Notes under the pieces: generated by a model
What the model was told of the DNA's origin: nothing
What the model saw: only the letters and a program-made list of their open reading frames with translations
The model's database searches: none
Shown here: one piece after another, positions 6,429-64,000 of the stretch
How positions within the stretch are numbered: position 1 is the first letter of the stretch
Layout of the letters: every line of letters begins with the position of its first letter
Position numbers and translations under genes: made by a program
Assembly (NCBI RefSeq): GCF_009914755.1
Contig: NC_060939.1
Origin: the human T2T-CHM13v2.0 reference genome, Homo sapiens
DNA: 64,000 nt
Reading direction: 5' to 3' (one strand)

Positions 6429-6531
6429 TTTCCAGACATCAGTCAAGAATCTGATTCTCCATTTGTTTTCATCTGCAAAAATCCTCAGGAAATGGTTGTG
6501 AAGTTTCCTATTAAAGGAAATCCAAAAATCT
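6429..6531 (+). CDS. TRIP4: TRIP4 (ASC-1, activating signal cointegrator 1) penultimate coding exon, ASCH-domain C-terminal part: FPDISQESDSPFVFICKNPQEMVVKFPIKGNPKI+T
   Basis: Acceptor tttttatatttcacAG at 6427-6428 and donor T|GTAAGT at 6532. The 103-nt exon translates to the recognisable TRIP4 C-terminal peptide, and its phase-1 end joins the next exon to form a TGG (Trp) codon. Confidence 0.95.
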
Positions 6532-6554
6532 GTAAGTCATGATTTTTTTTCTTT

Positions 6555-6666
6555 AAGACTAGTCAAGTGCAGTAGTAAGGAATGGGGAAAAAAGTAGAAC
6601 AAGGAGTTCAATCTATAACTGACTGTGAACAATCAGTTGAGGTAACCCACTACCTTTGGATCAGCC
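6555..6666 (-). pseudogene. Y RNA (RNY1-like) processed pseudogene
   Basis: The reverse complement reads GGCTGATCCAAAGGTAGTGGGTTACCTCAACTGATTGTTCACAGTCAGTTATAGATTGAACTCCTTGTTCTAC...ACTACTGCACTTGACTAGTCTT, a full-length hY1 match (about 85-90% by eye). A-tail at 6543-6554, flanked by TSD tgtaagtcat(g/a)at. Confidence 0.93.
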
Positions 6667-28994: not shown

Positions 28995-37122
<8,128 letters not shown>

Positions 37123-47681: not shown

Positions 47682-58544
<10,863 letters not shown>

Positions 58545-59049
58545 TAGAGTTATCATTTCATAAGAGATTATGTTTCCTTTACCTTGTGAGTAACTTTTTT
58601 CATAGTTTGTACATCATATCATCCACCCCCACTTTTTGCTCATCTCTTATAAAGTAGGATCTATGTAGACTTGGCATTTACTAATAAATAGTGGTTGGTT
58701 GCTGTTAACACTAAGATCTCCACTTGGGTAATGGATATATTTTCTTCCCACATCTACAGCTAAATGGCAGATAAATGTGCACACCTCTCCCCCTTAAATT
58801 CCTGTTGCTAGCAGGCATTCACCTGGCTCCCCTCCTTTGCTCTTCTACTGTGACATCTTTTCTTGCCCCTACACCCTAGTTCTTTGACATTGCTCTGAGG
58901 GAATAGGTAAAAAAGTACAATTTGTCTTGTCTGTGTCCTATCTGTGGCATTTACAGATCTCTACAAAGTTAGAGATCCACTTTGCAGAATTCACTGTGAC
59001 ACTACTGGCTTGTTCTTTCTACTCAATTACCTTATAAAAATTACTTTTT

Positions 59050-59453
<404 letters not shown>

Positions 59454-59494
59454 CTAGATGGCACACTCCTCAAGTCTTGTTAGTCAGGAGATAG

Positions 59495-59778
<284 letters not shown>

Positions 59779-60721
59779 ATAAATTGCACTTTTAATACCC
59801 CATCACCACCACCCCCTTTTGTAGCCAATCTCTGTTTCCTATGGTGTGAGGCCTGGTGTTTGTCAATACAGTGCCATCAGTATTACATGAGAAAGTGAAG
59901 AGTTATTCTACATCCTGGTGTTAGGATTTTTAGTAGTGTCCAGTTTTTCATAGAGTAAACATTTTTCTTTATTTGTGTGTCGTCCTATTTTAGTGGGAAG
60001 TGGGAAAGGCCACTTTGAATCCTGCTATTGAGATAATAATTTGAAACCTGGAGTTTTAGAAGGCTGTTTCAGCTTCTCTGAACTTAAGCTGATTGGTTGA
60101 GTCCCCTCTGAGATTGTCTCCTCTAGTTCAAGTCTTAGCCCCCTGTCCTGAAGTTGCATTTTCCCCAGTTCTGCTTGTTTTTCTCTTTCATTCTTAACCA
60201 TAAGACTTTTCCTTCCCAATAGTAGGAGGAATCTATACTATTTGTACTAGAGATAGACCCTGTTAGAGAGTTTTTAAAGCTTTTGCTAGATCATGTTCTG
60301 CGTCTCTGATAATGTAAGAAAAAGCAAGGAGAAATGGGGGTATAAGTAAAGTTGTGCTAGAGCTTGCATCTGTGATATGCCAGGACCTGTATTGATTGAG
60401 GAAGGGTTGCCAGCTGACAGTGGTAGTAGAAATAGGTCTCTTAGGAGTGGGAAATTAACTCTAGAGGACTCCTAGTTAAGACTTACCATGGAATCTCTGG
60501 GCAATTGGAAATACTGTACTTTCCCCTAGGGAGATGGAGTGGGAATTGATTTTTCCTTAGGTCCAATGTAACTTGGTTAGAAATACAATTGAACCTGTTT
60601 GTCATGTCTGTTGTGATATGATAGCCCCATAGGAAGGGTCTGTTTTTGTGTGGGAGTTTATTTCAGGCGTCTCTTGCCTGTATTGTTTCTTTTAACAGCT
60701 TTTTAAATTTTCTTTTTCCAG

Positions 60722-61595
60722 CAATGATGTTGTCCACTGGGCATGTACTGACCAATGTGGCAGGTCTGAGAACATAGCTGAAGCTGAAAATAGGAAAGCT
60801 GGGGGCAAGGAAGAGCCTTGAATCTTGAGGTGGGACGTTGACTCTAAGATGTCCTTGAGCAGTGGAGCCTCCGGAGGGAAAGGAGTGGATGCAAACCCGG
60901 TTGAGACATACGACAGTGGGGATGAATGGGACATTGGAGTAGGGAATCTCATCATTGACCTGGACGCCGATCTGGAAAAGGACCAGCAGAAACTGGAAAT
61001 GTCAGGCTCAAAGGAGGTGGGGATACCGGCTCCCAATGCTGTGGCCACACTACCAGACAACATCAAGTTTGTGACCCCAGTGCCAGGTCCTCAAGGGAAG
61101 GAAGGCAAATCAAAATCCAAAAGGAGTAAGAGTGGCAAAGACACTAGCAAACCCACTCCAGGGACTTCCCTGTTCACTCCAAGTGAGGGGGCAGCTAGCA
61201 AGAAAGAGGTGCAGGGGCGCTCAGGAGATGGTGCCAATGCTGGAGGCCTGGTTGCTGCTATTGCTCCCAAGGGCTCAGAGAAGGCGGCTAAGGCATCCCG
61301 CAGTGTAGCCGGTTCCAAAAAGGAGAAGGAGAACAGCTCATCTAAGAGCAAGAAGGAGAGAAGCGAAGGAGTGGGGACTTGTTCAGAAAAGGATCCTGGG
61401 GTCCTCCAGCCAGTTCCCTTGGGAGGACGGGGTGGTCAGTATGATGGAAGTGCAGGGGTGGATACAGGAGCTGTGGAGCCACTTGGGAGTATAGCTATTG
61501 AGCCTGGGGCAGCGCTCAATCCTTTGGGAACTAAACCGGAGCCAGAGGAAGGGGAGAATGAGTGTCGCCTGCTAAAGAAAGTCAAGTCTGAAAAG
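60722..61595 (+). ncRNA. ZNF609: ZNF609 exon 2 (874 nt) = circ-ZNF609 back-spliced circular RNA carrying a 753-nt ORF
   Basis: Acceptor ttttctttttccAG at 60720-60721 and donor after 61595 give 874 nt. The back-splice reads AAG|CAA TGA. Length and ORF match the published circ-ZNF609 as I recall it. Confidence 0.9.
60849..61595 (+). CDS. ZNF609: ZNF609 first coding exon (exon 2), codons 1-249: MSLSSGASGGKGVDANPVETYDSGDEWDIGVGNLIIDLDADLEKD...RLLKKVKSEK; the gene continues beyond the window
   Basis: ATG at 60849 (aagATGt) with an in-frame upstream TGA at 60819. The N-terminal motif is typical of ZNF608/ZNF609. Donor AAG|GTAAGA at 61596, phase 0. Confidence 0.96.
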
Positions 61596-64000
61596 GTAAG
61601 AGGTGGCCAGATATGGCTGCCCACTGACTGCCAGTCAGAACTGCCCTGGACTAACTGCCAAATACTATGTGTACTCTGTGGGAGGCTCATTAGTGTGTGG
61701 GTAATGACCAATTACAAGGTCAGAGCAGCTGGTAATGATAATGTGGTTTTCTTCCAAATTAGAGGATTCCCCTACAGACTCATTTACAGCAGGCCTGGAC
61801 ATTGTGGAACAGGATATTTGTTGTTGGGGGCAGCTACTTTGTAGAATGAACTTTCTGTAGTCTGAGTTGAGACCTTCCCACCTTGTCTTTGCCCACCTCA
61901 GACACTTGTTGGTAGAGATTGGCATCAGACCTTTATTTGTTTCCCAGCTTGACTGGCATTTCATCATCAGACTCATAATAGTTGATAAACAATACGCCTT
62001 TGGTGATAATGTAGATTGAGTACGGTTCTTGATGGGATAAATGGTGCTGTTGGGTCTCTGGTAGAACAAAGGGCTAAATTTCATGGCATATCTACGAAGT
62101 GTTCTATTGCCGGCTACCAAAGAGCAAAGGGGCACATTTTGAGGGCAAGAGGTACTCATTGTACTTTGAGGTACTTAGATCTTATGAGTTATTGTTGTGG
62201 TTATGACAGTTTGGCCTAGGAAGAGATTGGCCATTAAAGGTGTAGCTTCATGCCAGGTATCTCCCACAACTATTAGGAATCAAAGTCTCCTCGTGGTTTA
62301 ATAGCTGCCAACAGTGTAATGATACCTTGCCTTCTGCTTGACTTGGAAGGACAGGTGCCTGCAGCCCCAGGAGGGGTTAGAACTGAGTCCCTCCTCTGGG
62401 AAGATGATCTTAGTTCATGCTTTAGGAAATGGAACTTGCAGGGCTGGAGGAGAATGGGTGTGAGTCTAGGGTCAGCTCAGGCAGCATTAAACTTCAGCAG
62501 CTTATTCCTGCAAAACAGTGGCCTTGTGGTGAGCTGTTCATTGGCTCTTGATTTTCTGCTCTGTGCTCTGCTCATCCTGTGCTTTCAGCTGATCCCAGCA
62601 GATGCAGTATAAATTGATTTCTCTGTAATTAGATCAGCTGCAGCAGGGAATACCTATTTCCATATGTAAGTGTTAATAAATAAAGGCTGGATGTGTATGT
62701 TTGGGTGGTGGTGCCCTCTTAGTGCCTGTATTCCAGTGGTAGCTCATGCTTTCTTTGCTGTCGGTATTTTGGTCTTTGCCTCTGGCACATCTGTAGCTCT
62801 TAGCAACATCTGGGCTTCTCCAGTAGCAGGTCTGTGAGTTTCTTCCGCTAATAATACAGTGGCTCATTCCCTTTTACCAGTGGCAGCTGCCAGAGAGGCT
62901 GCCTGTGTTTAGGTGGCAGATGCTATAGTCCACTTCAGCAGAGTCAGGTTCCAGCTGGTTACTAGCTTGGCTCATCCTGTGCTGGCTGTGATTTGCTATT
63001 TTCTCTCGGGTACAGATGGATAATACTGTTTTAAAGAGGCTTAGGAGTACTAGCAGTTGTTGCTTCTGTTCCAGGCCCATTAGACTGTTCCCTACATCTG
63101 GCTTCAAGAAACTCTTGCCATATATCCATATTCATAATCATTATTCTTCCTGTGCTAAAAAGTACTTCTGAGGATGACCTTCATTCTCCTATCTAAATTT
63201 TAGAGTACTTATGTTGCAACCTTCTAAGCCCAGTGATAGTCTGTGGATGAAAGGATTAATATTGCTTAGCTTTATGTTGGATTTAAGTGTAAATGTCCAT
63301 GATTGTCTCTAACAGAGAAGCAAATGGAACCCATTTTCTCACATAGAGGTGCAGGGACTGATTGGGTGGCTGCCCTTCAGATTATAATTGGGCTGAAAGA
63401 TGCAGTATGTTCAGCTAAGAATACATCCTGGTGCCAGGGAGTTTTGTCCCTTAATAATGTTGCTTTGCCATATAAGCTTTGCCTCCCAGGGAGACTCTGA
63501 GAATGGGGCAGCAGAATGAGAAAGAAAAGGGAAAGAGACTGTGCTTCAGTTTTTGAAAGATAGAGAAAATTGCTGGCAATTACTTTTAGAAGCAGAAAAT
63601 TTGCTATACAGTTTCATGTAACCATAAGCAAGAACCTGCTTTCTCAATTCCTTCCCCTGTTCCCTCAACCCTTTTGGACAGTCTGGTCCTGAGGGTGCCT
63701 TTCCATATTACCTTTGGCTATTGAAATAAATAATTATTTAAATAAATGTTTGGAAGTTGCTAGGAGATTAAAACATGCTGTGCAGGGAGAGAACATTTCT
63801 GGACTGGGAGGAGCAGAAGAGGCAAGTTAAAGGAAAGGAAGTTAGGAACCATGCAGAGGAGCGGTTTTTGAGAAACAACAATCTCCGGTTTGGGGCATAA
63901 TAGGTGCTCAGTGAGTATTTGATGATTAGTACTATAATTTATAAGCAAAGTCTTTGAAAACTTCTTTAAAATTTTCTCTCTGAGAAATGGGCTTGCCTGT

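What the first reader, a model, noticed from the sequence alone, without database searches (positions are those of the whole stretch)
60722..61595. Exon that becomes a complete protein-coding gene only when circularised (circ-ZNF609)
Seen in sequence: the 874-nt exon holds 127 nt of UTR, the ZNF609 ATG (60849) and 249 open codons running to the donor with no stop. Back-splicing donor 61595 to acceptor 60722 gives GAA AAG|CAA TGA, so circularisation adds one Gln and a stop: a 753-nt ORF, 250 aa, with no zinc finger. A second in-frame ATG at 60999 (Met51) would give a 200-aa form. 874 is not a multiple of 3, so there is no rolling-circle ORF. Established knowledge: this is circ-ZNF609, reported as translated cap-independently in myogenesis (Legnini et al. 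2017). Later work questioned whether overexpression products come from linear or trans-spliced by-products. The system is real but not new.
Basis: partly seen in the sequence, partly recalled or inferred. Interest (0 to 1): 0.9.

Follow-up and report, generated by a model that had tools for sequence, protein, structure and literature searches.

The report
ZNF609 exon 2, source of circZNF609
This is the well-known second exon of the human ZNF609 gene, whose circular RNA carries a reading frame closed by the circle's own junction; the sequence facts are right, but the case was published in 2017 and is still disputed.

Summary
The exon is 60722-61595, 874 nt. It has an AG|CAATGA acceptor and a GAAAAG|GTAAGA donor. 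The ATG is at 60849 and 249 codons stay open to the donor. Joining donor to acceptor adds one Gln, then TGA at 60725-60727. That gives 753 nt and 250 aa. A second in-frame ATG at 60999 gives 200 aa. The circle has no endless frame.

Six numbers match print: the 753-nt ORF, a stop 3 nt after the junction, a second ATG 150 nt downstream, a 121-nt spacer, one extra residue, and an 874-nt circle (Legnini 2017, Ho-Xuan 2020).

The feature is not special as sequence. Of 60 random chr15 start-codon internal exons, 56 would also close their ORF after the junction, 8 of them within 6 nt.

I found no excess RNA structure (z +0.42 and +0.2), no Pfam domain, no His and no zinc finger.

The flanking introns are 38,457 and 122,448 nt. 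The nearest inverted Alu pair lies 3,609 nt away in total, which fits the "AUG circRNA" class.

Whether the endogenous circle is translated is unresolved in print. Verdict: real, correctly read, already known.

The parts
60722..61595 (+). ZNF609 exon 2 (874 nt). It is the first coding exon of the linear mRNA and the whole body of circZNF609.
   Evidence: Sequence and splice sites. It is exon 2 of all 5 RefSeq models. The length matches Legnini's table span and the 874 listed in the 2024 NAR review table.
60696..60721 (+). 3' splice site of intron 1: a pyrimidine-rich tract ending in AG. It is the acceptor used in back-splicing.
   Evidence: context printed.
61596..61601 (+). 5' splice site of intron 2 (GTAAGA after exonic AAG). 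It is the donor used in back-splicing.
60849..60851 (+). ATG1, the annotated ZNF609 start. It begins the 250-aa circle ORF.
   Evidence: RefSeq coding starts here. An in-frame TGA lies upstream at 60819-60821.
60999..61001 (+). ATG2 (Met51), in frame and 150 nt downstream of ATG1. It begins the 200-aa form.
   Evidence: Legnini passage on a second ATG 150 nt downstream. This Met is also present in the ZNF608 paralog alignment.
60722..60727 (+). CAA TGA: the one added Gln codon and the stop, read in frame only after the donor at 61595 is joined to 60722.
   Evidence: Legnini: stop 3 nt after the junction. Ho-Xuan: one additional amino acid.
60728..60848 (+). 121-nt spacer between the stop and ATG1 in the circle. 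It is the 'UTR' tested as an IRES in print.
   Evidence: Length by coordinates. Ho-Xuan section 22 gives 121 nt. The junction segment shows no excess folding, z = +0.2.
60724..60777 (+). Native upstream ORF of 17 codons (16 from the second ATG at 60727). Its two ATGs overlap the circle's TGA stop. It ends at TAG 60775-60777, 71 nt before ATG1.
   Evidence: list of ATGs in the leader with translations. (the same residues at the end of ORF 60646-60777).
59495..59777 (-). Nearest upstream Alu, about 945-967 nt from the acceptor. It is one arm of the nearest inverted pair across the exon. The other arm lies beyond the window at L001 about 2642-2892.
   Evidence: Two sub-threshold Metazoa_SRP matches. 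blastn pair of 76% over 263 nt.
59051..59332 (+). Second upstream Alu, inverted relative to its neighbour at 59495-59777 and 166 nt from it. It is a competing partner within the same intron.
   Evidence: Inverted repeat I1, 109 nt at 83%.

Best explanation
The region is exon 2 of ZNF609. Its main job is to act as the first coding exon of the linear mRNA: it carries 127 nt of leader and codons 1-249.

The same exon is also back-spliced (donor 61595 to acceptor 60722) into the abundant 874-nt circle circZNF609, also called hsa_circ_0000615. I infer that back-splicing is favoured mainly by the very long flanking introns rather than by close inverted Alus.

The circle holds the host start codon. 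Because the leader carries a TGA at bases 4-6, the circle also holds a closed 250-aa ORF, and a 200-aa ORF from Met51. I read this closure as a by-product of exon anatomy, not as a designed gene. The product would be a low-complexity N-terminal piece of ZNF609 without a zinc finger.

Translation of the endogenous circle is at most inefficient and is not securely shown. The better-supported activities of the circle in print are at the RNA level.

Shown here: the anatomy, the ORF arithmetic, how generic the closure is, the lack of excess structure, the intron lengths and the Alu layout.

Taken from papers: that the circle exists, that it sits on polysomes, the tagged products, and the by-product problem.

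Inferred: the intron-length-driven biogenesis and the by-product reading.
For: Anatomy.

Identity with the published circle rests on six matching numbers: 753 nt, a stop 3 nt past the junction, a second ATG at +150, a 121-nt spacer, one added residue and an 874-nt span. The name hsa_circ_0000615 comes from a search-listing abstract.

Generic closure: 56 of 60 control exons close after the junction, 8 of 60 within 6 nt. Shuffled leaders contain a stop in 4710 of 5000 shuffles. The putative homologous exon of the ZNF608 paralog would close 21 nt after its junction. Stagsted 2019 passages report that the distance from junction to stop follows chance expectation and that these stops are not selectively conserved.

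The stop position is not kept in chicken. The published chicken circle is 867 nt with a 699-nt ORF of 232 aa, of which 200 are shared with ZNF609 (passages).

No structured element: the circular MFE is -287.1 against -290.3 +/- 7.8 in 100 shuffles (z +0.42). The junction segment has z +0.2. Ho-Xuan could delete 89 of the 121 spacer nt without loss of product.

Product: 0 Pfam families. It has 0 His and 2 Cys, and 63% of residues are G, S, K, E, P or A. The single-sequence model has mean pLDDT 49.1.

Biogenesis: the introns are 38,457 and 122,448 nt. The nearest inverted Alu pair is 967 + 2,642 = 3,609 nt away. That is above the 2,300-nt cutoff, and both introns exceed the 6,500-nt cutoff, of Stagsted 2019. 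The closest upstream Alu has an inverted partner 166 nt away in its own intron.

Doubt about translation: Ho-Xuan sections 24 and 25, Stagsted passages and a 2026 review section.

RNA-level function: Rossi 2022.
Against: - Legnini et al. report polysome association that behaves like active translation.
- They report loss of each tagged band when its ATG is removed.
- They report splicing-dependent activity of the spacer in a bicistronic reporter.
- They made an endogenous FLAG knock-in in mouse ES cells that is in frame only after circularisation, and read it out by IP and mass spectrometry. The 2026 review still counts this knock-in as a direct, though thin, endogenous observation.
- Legnini also state that the leader part inside the circle is more conserved than the other ZNF609 UTR sequence. 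That could reflect selection on the circle.
- A stop within 2 codons is mildly unusual: 285 of 5000 shuffles and 8 of 60 real exons.
- Inverted Alus are plentiful in both introns (984 inverted HSPs), so a contribution from Alu pairing is not excluded.
- My folding test cannot detect short, unstructured or protein-dependent entry sites.
- The single-sequence structure model is weak evidence for disorder.
Confidence: 0.72

Rival explanations
1. The endogenous circle is a true messenger. Ribosomes enter internally on the 121-nt spacer, helped by factors left by splicing and/or by m6A. They start at ATG1 or ATG2 and stop at the junction-made TGA. The resulting 250-aa and 200-aa proteins contribute to the proliferation phenotype.
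For: Legnini 2017 passages report polysome loading, ATG mutants, heat-shock induction, a splicing-dependent reporter, and the endogenous knock-in with IP and mass spectrometry. A 2025 chicken study reports a tagged product and mass spectrometry (passages). A 2024 review table lists circZNF609 as 250 aa with polysome and ribosome-profiling support. The sequence allows it. There are 18 DRACH motifs in the exon.
Against: Ho-Xuan found no endogenous protein, no dependence on METTL3 and no required spacer element. The proteins were still made when the circle was abolished, and in vitro made circles were not translated. Stagsted report no supporting RiboSeq reads or circle-specific peptides for published coding circRNAs; their Table S7 is a supplement I could not open, so I did not see circZNF609 named in it. 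There is no excess structure. 18 DRACH sites in 874 nt is close to my own arithmetic expectation of about 15. The only circle-specific residue is one C-terminal Gln after Lys, so tryptic peptides cannot tell the product from the N-terminus of full-length ZNF609 (inference). No experiment links the phenotype to the protein.
Confidence: 0.22
2. The 250-aa and 200-aa products seen in experiments come from capped linear RNAs in which exon 2 is joined to another copy of exon 2, by trans-splicing or exon repetition. Such RNAs carry the same junction and the same closed ORF as the circle.
For: Ho-Xuan section 24: deleting the downstream Alu of the vector abolished the circle but not proteins A and B, and further deleting the splice site removed them. 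A 2021 preprint title and abstract make the same general point; I saw the search listing only. By sequence, any exon 2-exon 2 join gives GAAAAG|CAATGA.
Against: This was shown for plasmid vectors with foreign introns, not for the native locus. Legnini report RT-PCR controls against concatemers and RNase R-resistant circles on polysomes. Ho-Xuan state they cannot exclude production from both templates.
Confidence: 0.5
3. Back-splicing of this exon is driven by pairing between inverted Alu elements in intron 1 and intron 2, which brings donor and acceptor together.
For: There are 984 inverted HSPs between intron 1 and the first 40 kb of intron 2. The nearest pair is 76% identical over 263 nt. 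Stronger pairs include 59497-59783 against a copy about 6.3 kb downstream, at 81% over 290 nt. The elements are Alu-like by their 7SL-related matches.
Against: The nearest pair is 3,609 nt away in total, beyond the 2,300-nt cutoff that Stagsted used for Alu-dependent circles. No Alu lies in the first 2.6 kb of intron 2. The closest upstream Alu has a nearer inverted partner in its own intron. The circle is reported in mouse and chicken, which lack Alus; that Alus are primate-specific is stated. Within 1.5 kb on each side, only one 19-nt pair at 84% spans the exon.
Confidence: 0.2

Closest known systems
circ-ZNF609 / circZNF609 (hsa_circ_0000615), Legnini et al. 2017
   Same: It is the same object. 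It is exon 2 of ZNF609, 874 nt, with a 753-nt ORF from the host AUG to a stop 3 nt past the junction, a second AUG 150 nt downstream, a 121-nt spacer and one added residue.
   Different: Nothing in the sequence features I could compare. I could not align the T2T exon base by base with a published sequence, because none was available to the tools.
AUG circRNAs (Stagsted et al. 2019): circles made from the exon that holds the host start codon, such as circHIPK3 and circSLC8A1
   Same: [quoted passage not shown] It is reported as conserved in mouse. Its ORF closes in the leader at a distance that chance explains.
   Different: circZNF609 is one of the few members with a direct published claim of translation, including an endogenous tag. 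At 250 aa its ORF is longer than most: 4 of the 56 finite ORFs in my control set reach 250 aa.
Chicken circZNF609 (2025 report)
   Same: It comes from the same host gene and the same start-codon exon, has a similar size (867 nt) and crosses the junction with its ORF (passages).
   Different: Its ORF is 699 nt and 232 aa, with 200 aa shared with ZNF609. The tail after the junction is therefore long, and the Gln-plus-stop arrangement is not kept. I did not see the chicken sequence itself.
Homologous exon of the paralog ZNF608 (chr5, locus L004)
   Same: It is a start-codon exon open to its donor. Its N-terminal block (residues 7-51 of ZNF609) is nearly identical, including the Met at position 51. 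It would close its ORF 21 nt after a back-splice junction.
   Different: It is 1,089 nt, a multiple of 3, and would gain a 6-residue tail. Its acceptor is my reading of the sequence and was not checked against annotation. I did not check whether a circle is made from it.

Membership tests
circZNF609 (the published circle) | Made of ZNF609 exon 2 alone, 874 nt | tested here: met
   Exon 2 of 5 of 5 RefSeq models. The length is 874. The published span is 64791491-64792365.
circZNF609 (the published circle) | 753-nt ORF from the host AUG to a stop 3 nt after the junction, with a second AUG 150 nt downstream and a 121-nt spacer | tested here: met
   One search compared with the passages.
circZNF609 (the published circle) | The RNA exists as an RNase R-resistant circle in cells | not testable with these tools
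It is reported in print.
AUG circRNA class (Stagsted 2019) | The circle derives from the exon that holds the annotated start codon | tested here: met
   RefSeq coding starts at 60849, inside the exon.
AUG circRNA class (Stagsted 2019) | Long flanking introns (over 6,500 nt) | tested here: met
   38,457 and 122,448 nt.
AUG circRNA class (Stagsted 2019) | No inverted Alu pair within 2,300 nt total distance ('Alu-independent') | tested here: met
   The nearest pair is 3,609 nt away. I searched only the first 40 kb of intron 2, which is enough for the nearest pair.
Protein-coding circRNA with internal ribosome entry | A finite ORF that crosses the back-splice junction | tested here: met
   The same holds for 56 of 60 control exons.
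Protein-coding circRNA with internal ribosome entry | A defined entry element upstream of the start codon | tested here: inconclusive
   No excess folding energy: z +0.42 for the circle and +0.2 for the junction segment. The papers disagree. Folding cannot detect unstructured elements.
Protein-coding circRNA with internal ribosome entry | The junction-made stop codon is kept in evolution | tested here: inconclusive
   No vertebrate DNA was available. The mouse knock-in was placed 'in the same position'. The chicken ORF has a different tail. As a class these stops are not conserved.
Protein-coding circRNA with internal ribosome entry | An endogenous product that can only come from the circle | not testable with these tools
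   Print is divided.
Rolling-circle (endless ORF) circRNA | A frame with no stop around the circle | tested here: not met
   31 stops are met over three rounds from any starting phase.

The most novel reading that the evidence does not exclude
The circle's stop codon is overlapped by two start codons: ATG at 60724 and at 60727, inside the string AATGATG. These open a 17-codon ORF that ends 71 nt before ATG1. On the circle, a ribosome that ends the 250-aa ORF therefore sits on a stop-start overlap. It could restart on the short ORF, end again, and then restart at ATG1 or ATG2. After one rare internal entry it could go round repeatedly by termination-reinitiation and so need no strong entry site.

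This would fit two published observations: the near-equal use of ATG1 and ATG2 on the circular template, and the loss of ATG1 use when the stop is fused to it. The same short ORF, acting on the linear mRNA, could instead explain why this part of the leader is conserved.

I found no mention of this native overlap in the passages and sections I read, nor in a search for ZNF609 with uORF (26 papers, top 8 listed). That is not proof of absence.
Probability: 0.04. Interest if true: 0.55.

Novelty: already known. Interest (0 to 1): 0.12.

Why it matters
circZNF609 is the textbook test case for whether endogenous circular RNAs are translated. The sequence facts checked here set the limits of that debate.

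- The circle-specific part of the product is a single C-terminal Gln after a Lys, so ordinary tryptic proteomics cannot prove a circular origin.
- Any linear exon 2-exon 2 RNA encodes the same protein.
- The ORF closure on which the coding claim rests is what nearly every first-coding internal exon would show.

None of this is new. It is useful mainly as a calibration: a scan will flag many such exons, and ORF closure alone should not be counted as evidence.

Tried and rejected
1. Structured IRES. I folded the 874-nt circle and a 210-nt junction segment against dinucleotide shuffles. Neither was more stable than its shuffles, so there is no support.

2. m6A motif enrichment. There are 18 DRACH sites against about 15 expected by my own arithmetic. 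Not informative.

3. Known RNA families. Rfam gave only Alu-type 7SL-like and Alu-derived miRNA-like sub-threshold matches in 55000-64000, and nothing inside the exon.

4. Protein domain. Pfam at E up to 1 gave 0 families. The single-sequence AlphaFold model had mean pLDDT 49.1 and no secondary structure, so I made no fold search.

5. In-silico test of the published pairing between the junction region and the CKAP5 3' UTR. I found the (CU4)3 motif in the CKAP5 3' end. I ran plain duplex folding of 175 windows of 60 nt around the circle against 600 nt of that UTR. The 12 junction-spanning windows ranked 59th at best. A window 39 nt upstream of the junction (circle bases 776-835) ranked 4th. Duplex folding without accessibility gives long, loopy pairings for every window, so I count this as inconclusive, neither for nor against Rossi 2022.

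6. Short non-Alu complementarity next to the exon. Only one 19-nt pair at 84% spans the exon, which is probably chance.

7. Alternative linear route to an N-terminal-only protein. If the donor is not used, the frame runs 331 codons to a stop at 61842-61844. PAS-like hexamers occur from 62233 onward. No RefSeq model uses such a route: 0 of 5. I did not pursue it.

8. I did not use the large protein searches, the Atlas search or the viral and microbial DNA scans. They could not bear on a known human exon.

9. Supplements were closed and I asked for none. Stagsted Table S7, Legnini Figures S5-S6 and Ho-Xuan Figure S1 could bear on whether circZNF609 was among the circles re-tested and on the concatemer controls. 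Di Timoteo 2020 on m6A and circ-ZNF609 I know only from recall. I did not see it and rest nothing on it.
Full report
**What is there.**
- A pyrimidine tract and AG precede the exon, which begins CAATGATG.
- The exon ends GAAAAG and is followed by GTAAGA.
- It is 874 nt long.
- The first 127 nt are leader.
- The ATG at 60849 is preceded by an in-frame TGA at 60819-60821.
- It is followed by 249 open codons up to the donor.

Read as a circle, the frame continues CAA then TGA (60722-60727). This gives a 753-nt ORF of 250 residues. The in-frame ATG at 60999 (Met51) gives 200 residues. No frame of the circle is endless: 31 stops are met over three rounds. RefSeq has this exon as exon 2 of all 5 ZNF609 models, and coding begins at 60849.

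**Identity with the published case.** Legnini et al. 2017 (passages) say the following:
- circ-ZNF609 comes from circularisation of the second exon.
- It holds a 753-nt ORF from the host AUG to a stop created 3 nt after the junction.
- A second ATG lies 150 nt downstream in the same frame.

Their table gives hg19 chr15 64791491-64792365, a span of 874. Ho-Xuan et al. 2020 (sections 19 and 22 read whole) describe one additional amino acid and a 121-nt spacer between UGA and AUG, which is 60728-60848 here. A 2024 review table lists 250 aa and 874 nt. All the numbers that can be compared agree. A search for 'circ-ZNF609' with 'translated' returns 1,233 papers. The object is already known.

**Is the ORF closure more than chance?** No.
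- A dinucleotide-shuffled 127-nt leader contains a stop in the junction frame in 4710 of 5000 shuffles, and within the first two codons in 285 of 5000.
- For a control with real sequence I started from the 181 chr15 'select' mRNAs whose start codon lies in an internal exon. I kept the 93 with a leader of at least 30 nt and an exon of at most 3,000 nt. I dropped ZNF609 and drew 60 of the remaining 92 at random. I fetched them and read each as a circle.
- Of these 60, 56 give a finite ORF closed after the junction and 4 give an endless ORF.
- In 8 the stop ends within 6 nt of the junction, as in ZNF609. In 22 it ends within 30 nt. The median is 40 nt.
- Four of the 56 finite ORFs reach 250 aa.
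- The putative homologous exon of the paralog ZNF608 (1,089 nt; the acceptor is my own reading, not checked against annotation) would close 21 nt after its junction.
- Stagsted et al. 2019 report the same genome-wide: junction-to-stop distances follow the geometric expectation, and these stops are not selectively conserved (passages).
- The published chicken circle is 867 nt with a 699-nt ORF of 232 aa, 200 of them shared with ZNF609. The Gln-plus-stop arrangement is therefore not kept there (passages).

**The product.**
- The 250-residue product has no Pfam match at E up to 1.
- It has no His and two Cys, so no C2H2 finger is possible.
- 63% of its residues are Gly, Ser, Lys, Glu, Pro or Ala.
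- The computed masses are 25.4 and 20.2 kDa.
- A single-sequence structure model is uniformly low in confidence, with mean pLDDT 49.1 and no secondary structure. This is weak evidence for disorder.
- Against ZNF608 the exon product is 37% identical overall, with a nearly identical block at residues 7-51 that includes Met51.
- The only residue that marks the circular product is the terminal Gln after a Lys. Tryptic peptides therefore cannot tell it from the N-terminus of full-length ZNF609.

**The RNA.**
- The circle folds no better than its shuffles: -287.1 against -290.3 +/- 7.8 kcal/mol in 100 shuffles, z +0.42.
- A segment made of the last 80 and first 130 nt has z +0.2.
- This agrees with Ho-Xuan's finding that 89 of the 121 spacer nucleotides can be removed without loss of product.
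- It cannot address Legnini's splicing-dependent reporter activity.
- Rfam finds nothing inside the exon.

**Surroundings and biogenesis.**
- Intron 1 is 38,457 nt and intron 2 is 122,448 nt. About 40% of each is masked repeat.
- Within 5 kb upstream there are five Alu-type elements, recognised by paired sub-threshold matches to the 7SL model. Four are on the minus strand and one is on the plus strand.
- None lies in the 2.4 kb of intron 2 inside the window. The first lies about 2.6 kb past the donor, in L001.
- blastn of intron 1 against the first 40 kb of intron 2 gives 984 inverted and 1,141 direct HSPs. The nearest inverted pair is 967 + 2,642 = 3,609 nt from the splice sites, at 76% over 263 nt.
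- By the cutoffs in Stagsted 2019 (2,300 nt total distance for Alu-dependent circles, 6,500 nt for long introns), this exon falls in the Alu-independent, long-intron group typical of start-codon circles.
- The closest upstream Alu also has an inverted neighbour 166 nt away in the same intron (109 nt at 83%). That neighbour would compete with pairing across the exon.
- The circle is reported in mouse and chicken, which lack Alus.
- I therefore infer that intron length, not Alu pairing, is the main driver. This is inference, not a test.

**Is the circle translated?** This cannot be settled with these tools, and print is divided.

For translation:
- polysome loading
- loss of each band with its ATG
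- heat-shock induction
- a splicing-dependent reporter
- a mouse ES-cell knock-in whose tag is in frame only after circularisation, read out by IP and mass spectrometry (Legnini)

Against translation:
- no endogenous protein
- independence from METTL3
- no required element in the spacer or the coding part
- no translation of in vitro made circles
- persistence of both proteins when the circle is abolished by deleting the vector's downstream Alu, with loss only when the splice site is also removed. This points to trans-spliced linear RNA (Ho-Xuan abstract and sections 22, 24 and 25).

Ho-Xuan state that they cannot exclude production from both templates. Stagsted report no supporting RiboSeq reads and no circle-specific peptides for circles published as coding. 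The table naming them is a supplement I could not open. A 2026 review rates the endogenous evidence as provisional and the link between product and phenotype as untested (section read whole). By sequence, any linear exon 2-exon 2 RNA carries the same junction and the same ORF.

**RNA-level function.** Rossi et al. 2022 report that the junction region pairs with the CKAP5 3' UTR and helps recruit ELAVL1 (passages and section 11). I found the (CU4)3 motif they describe in the CKAP5 3' end. My plain duplex-energy scan did not single out the junction. The best of the 12 junction-spanning windows ranked 59th of 175, while a window at circle bases 776-835 ranked 4th. The method is crude, and I count the result as inconclusive.

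**Best reading.** This is ZNF609 exon 2 doing its ordinary job in the linear mRNA. It is also back-spliced into a well-known circle. The circle's closed ORF is a by-product of carrying the start codon and a stop-bearing leader. Translation of the endogenous circle is at most weak and unproven (confidence 0.72).

The boldest reading the evidence leaves open concerns the string AATGATG at the exon start. The circle's TGA is overlapped by two ATGs that open a 17-codon ORF ending 71 nt before ATG1. This could allow repeated termination-reinitiation around the circle. As an ordinary upstream ORF of the linear mRNA, it could instead explain why this part of the leader is conserved. I put the first idea at about 4%.

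**Verdict.** The case is already known, so its interest for a discovery scan is low.

Noticed in passing
window 60724-60777 (+): There is a native 17-codon upstream ORF in the exon's leader. Its two ATGs (60724 and 60727) overlap the TGA that ends the circle ORF, and it stops 71 nt before the main ATG. All five alternative first exons end in G, so the first ATG has a purine at -3 in the linear mRNAs as well as in the circle. I saw no mention of it in the parts of the two main papers that I read.
   Followed up: partly
window 6553-6666 (-): A Y RNA match of 66.1 bits, against a gathering score of 38, lies 22 nt downstream of TRIP4 exon 6429-6531. It sits inside an annotated enhancer. No gene is listed there in RefSeq for this window. 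It is most likely an unannotated Y RNA pseudogene; the genome's gene table lists 79 names beginning RNY.
   Followed up: partly
window 35522-35638 (-): A 117-nt element in ZNF609 intron 1 scores 73.4 bits against the metazoan SRP RNA model, just above its gathering score of 70. From its length, it is an Alu-type monomer rather than an SRP RNA gene.
   Followed up: no
window 56070-56121, 59593-59644, 57363-57414 (-); 59251-59310 (-), 58282-58341 and 59517-59576 (+): Sub-threshold matches to the mir-1268 and mir-3135 families lie inside the Alu elements upstream of the exon. All are below the gathering scores, so they look like family models built on Alu-derived hairpins rather than genes.
   Followed up: no
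L004 1198-2286 (-), chr5 125260564-125261652: The putative homologous exon of ZNF608 is 1,089 nt, a multiple of 3. As a circle it would give a 308-aa ORF with a 6-residue tail. It holds a 23-codon upstream ORF that runs past the main ATG. The acceptor site is my reading and was not checked against annotation.
   Followed up: partly
L017, L029, L048, L050 (chr15 exons of SPINT1, FBN1, CD276, C15orf39): Four of the 60 control start-codon exons would give an endless ORF if circularised. One of them (CD276, 133 nt) has a length that is not a multiple of 3. I did not check whether these exons are ever circularised.
   Followed up: no
window 61596-61844 (+): If the exon 2 donor is not used, the ZNF609 frame stays open for a further 82 codons into intron 2. 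It stops at 61842-61844, giving 331 aa. The first poly(A)-signal hexamer follows at 62233. No RefSeq model uses this route.
   Followed up: no
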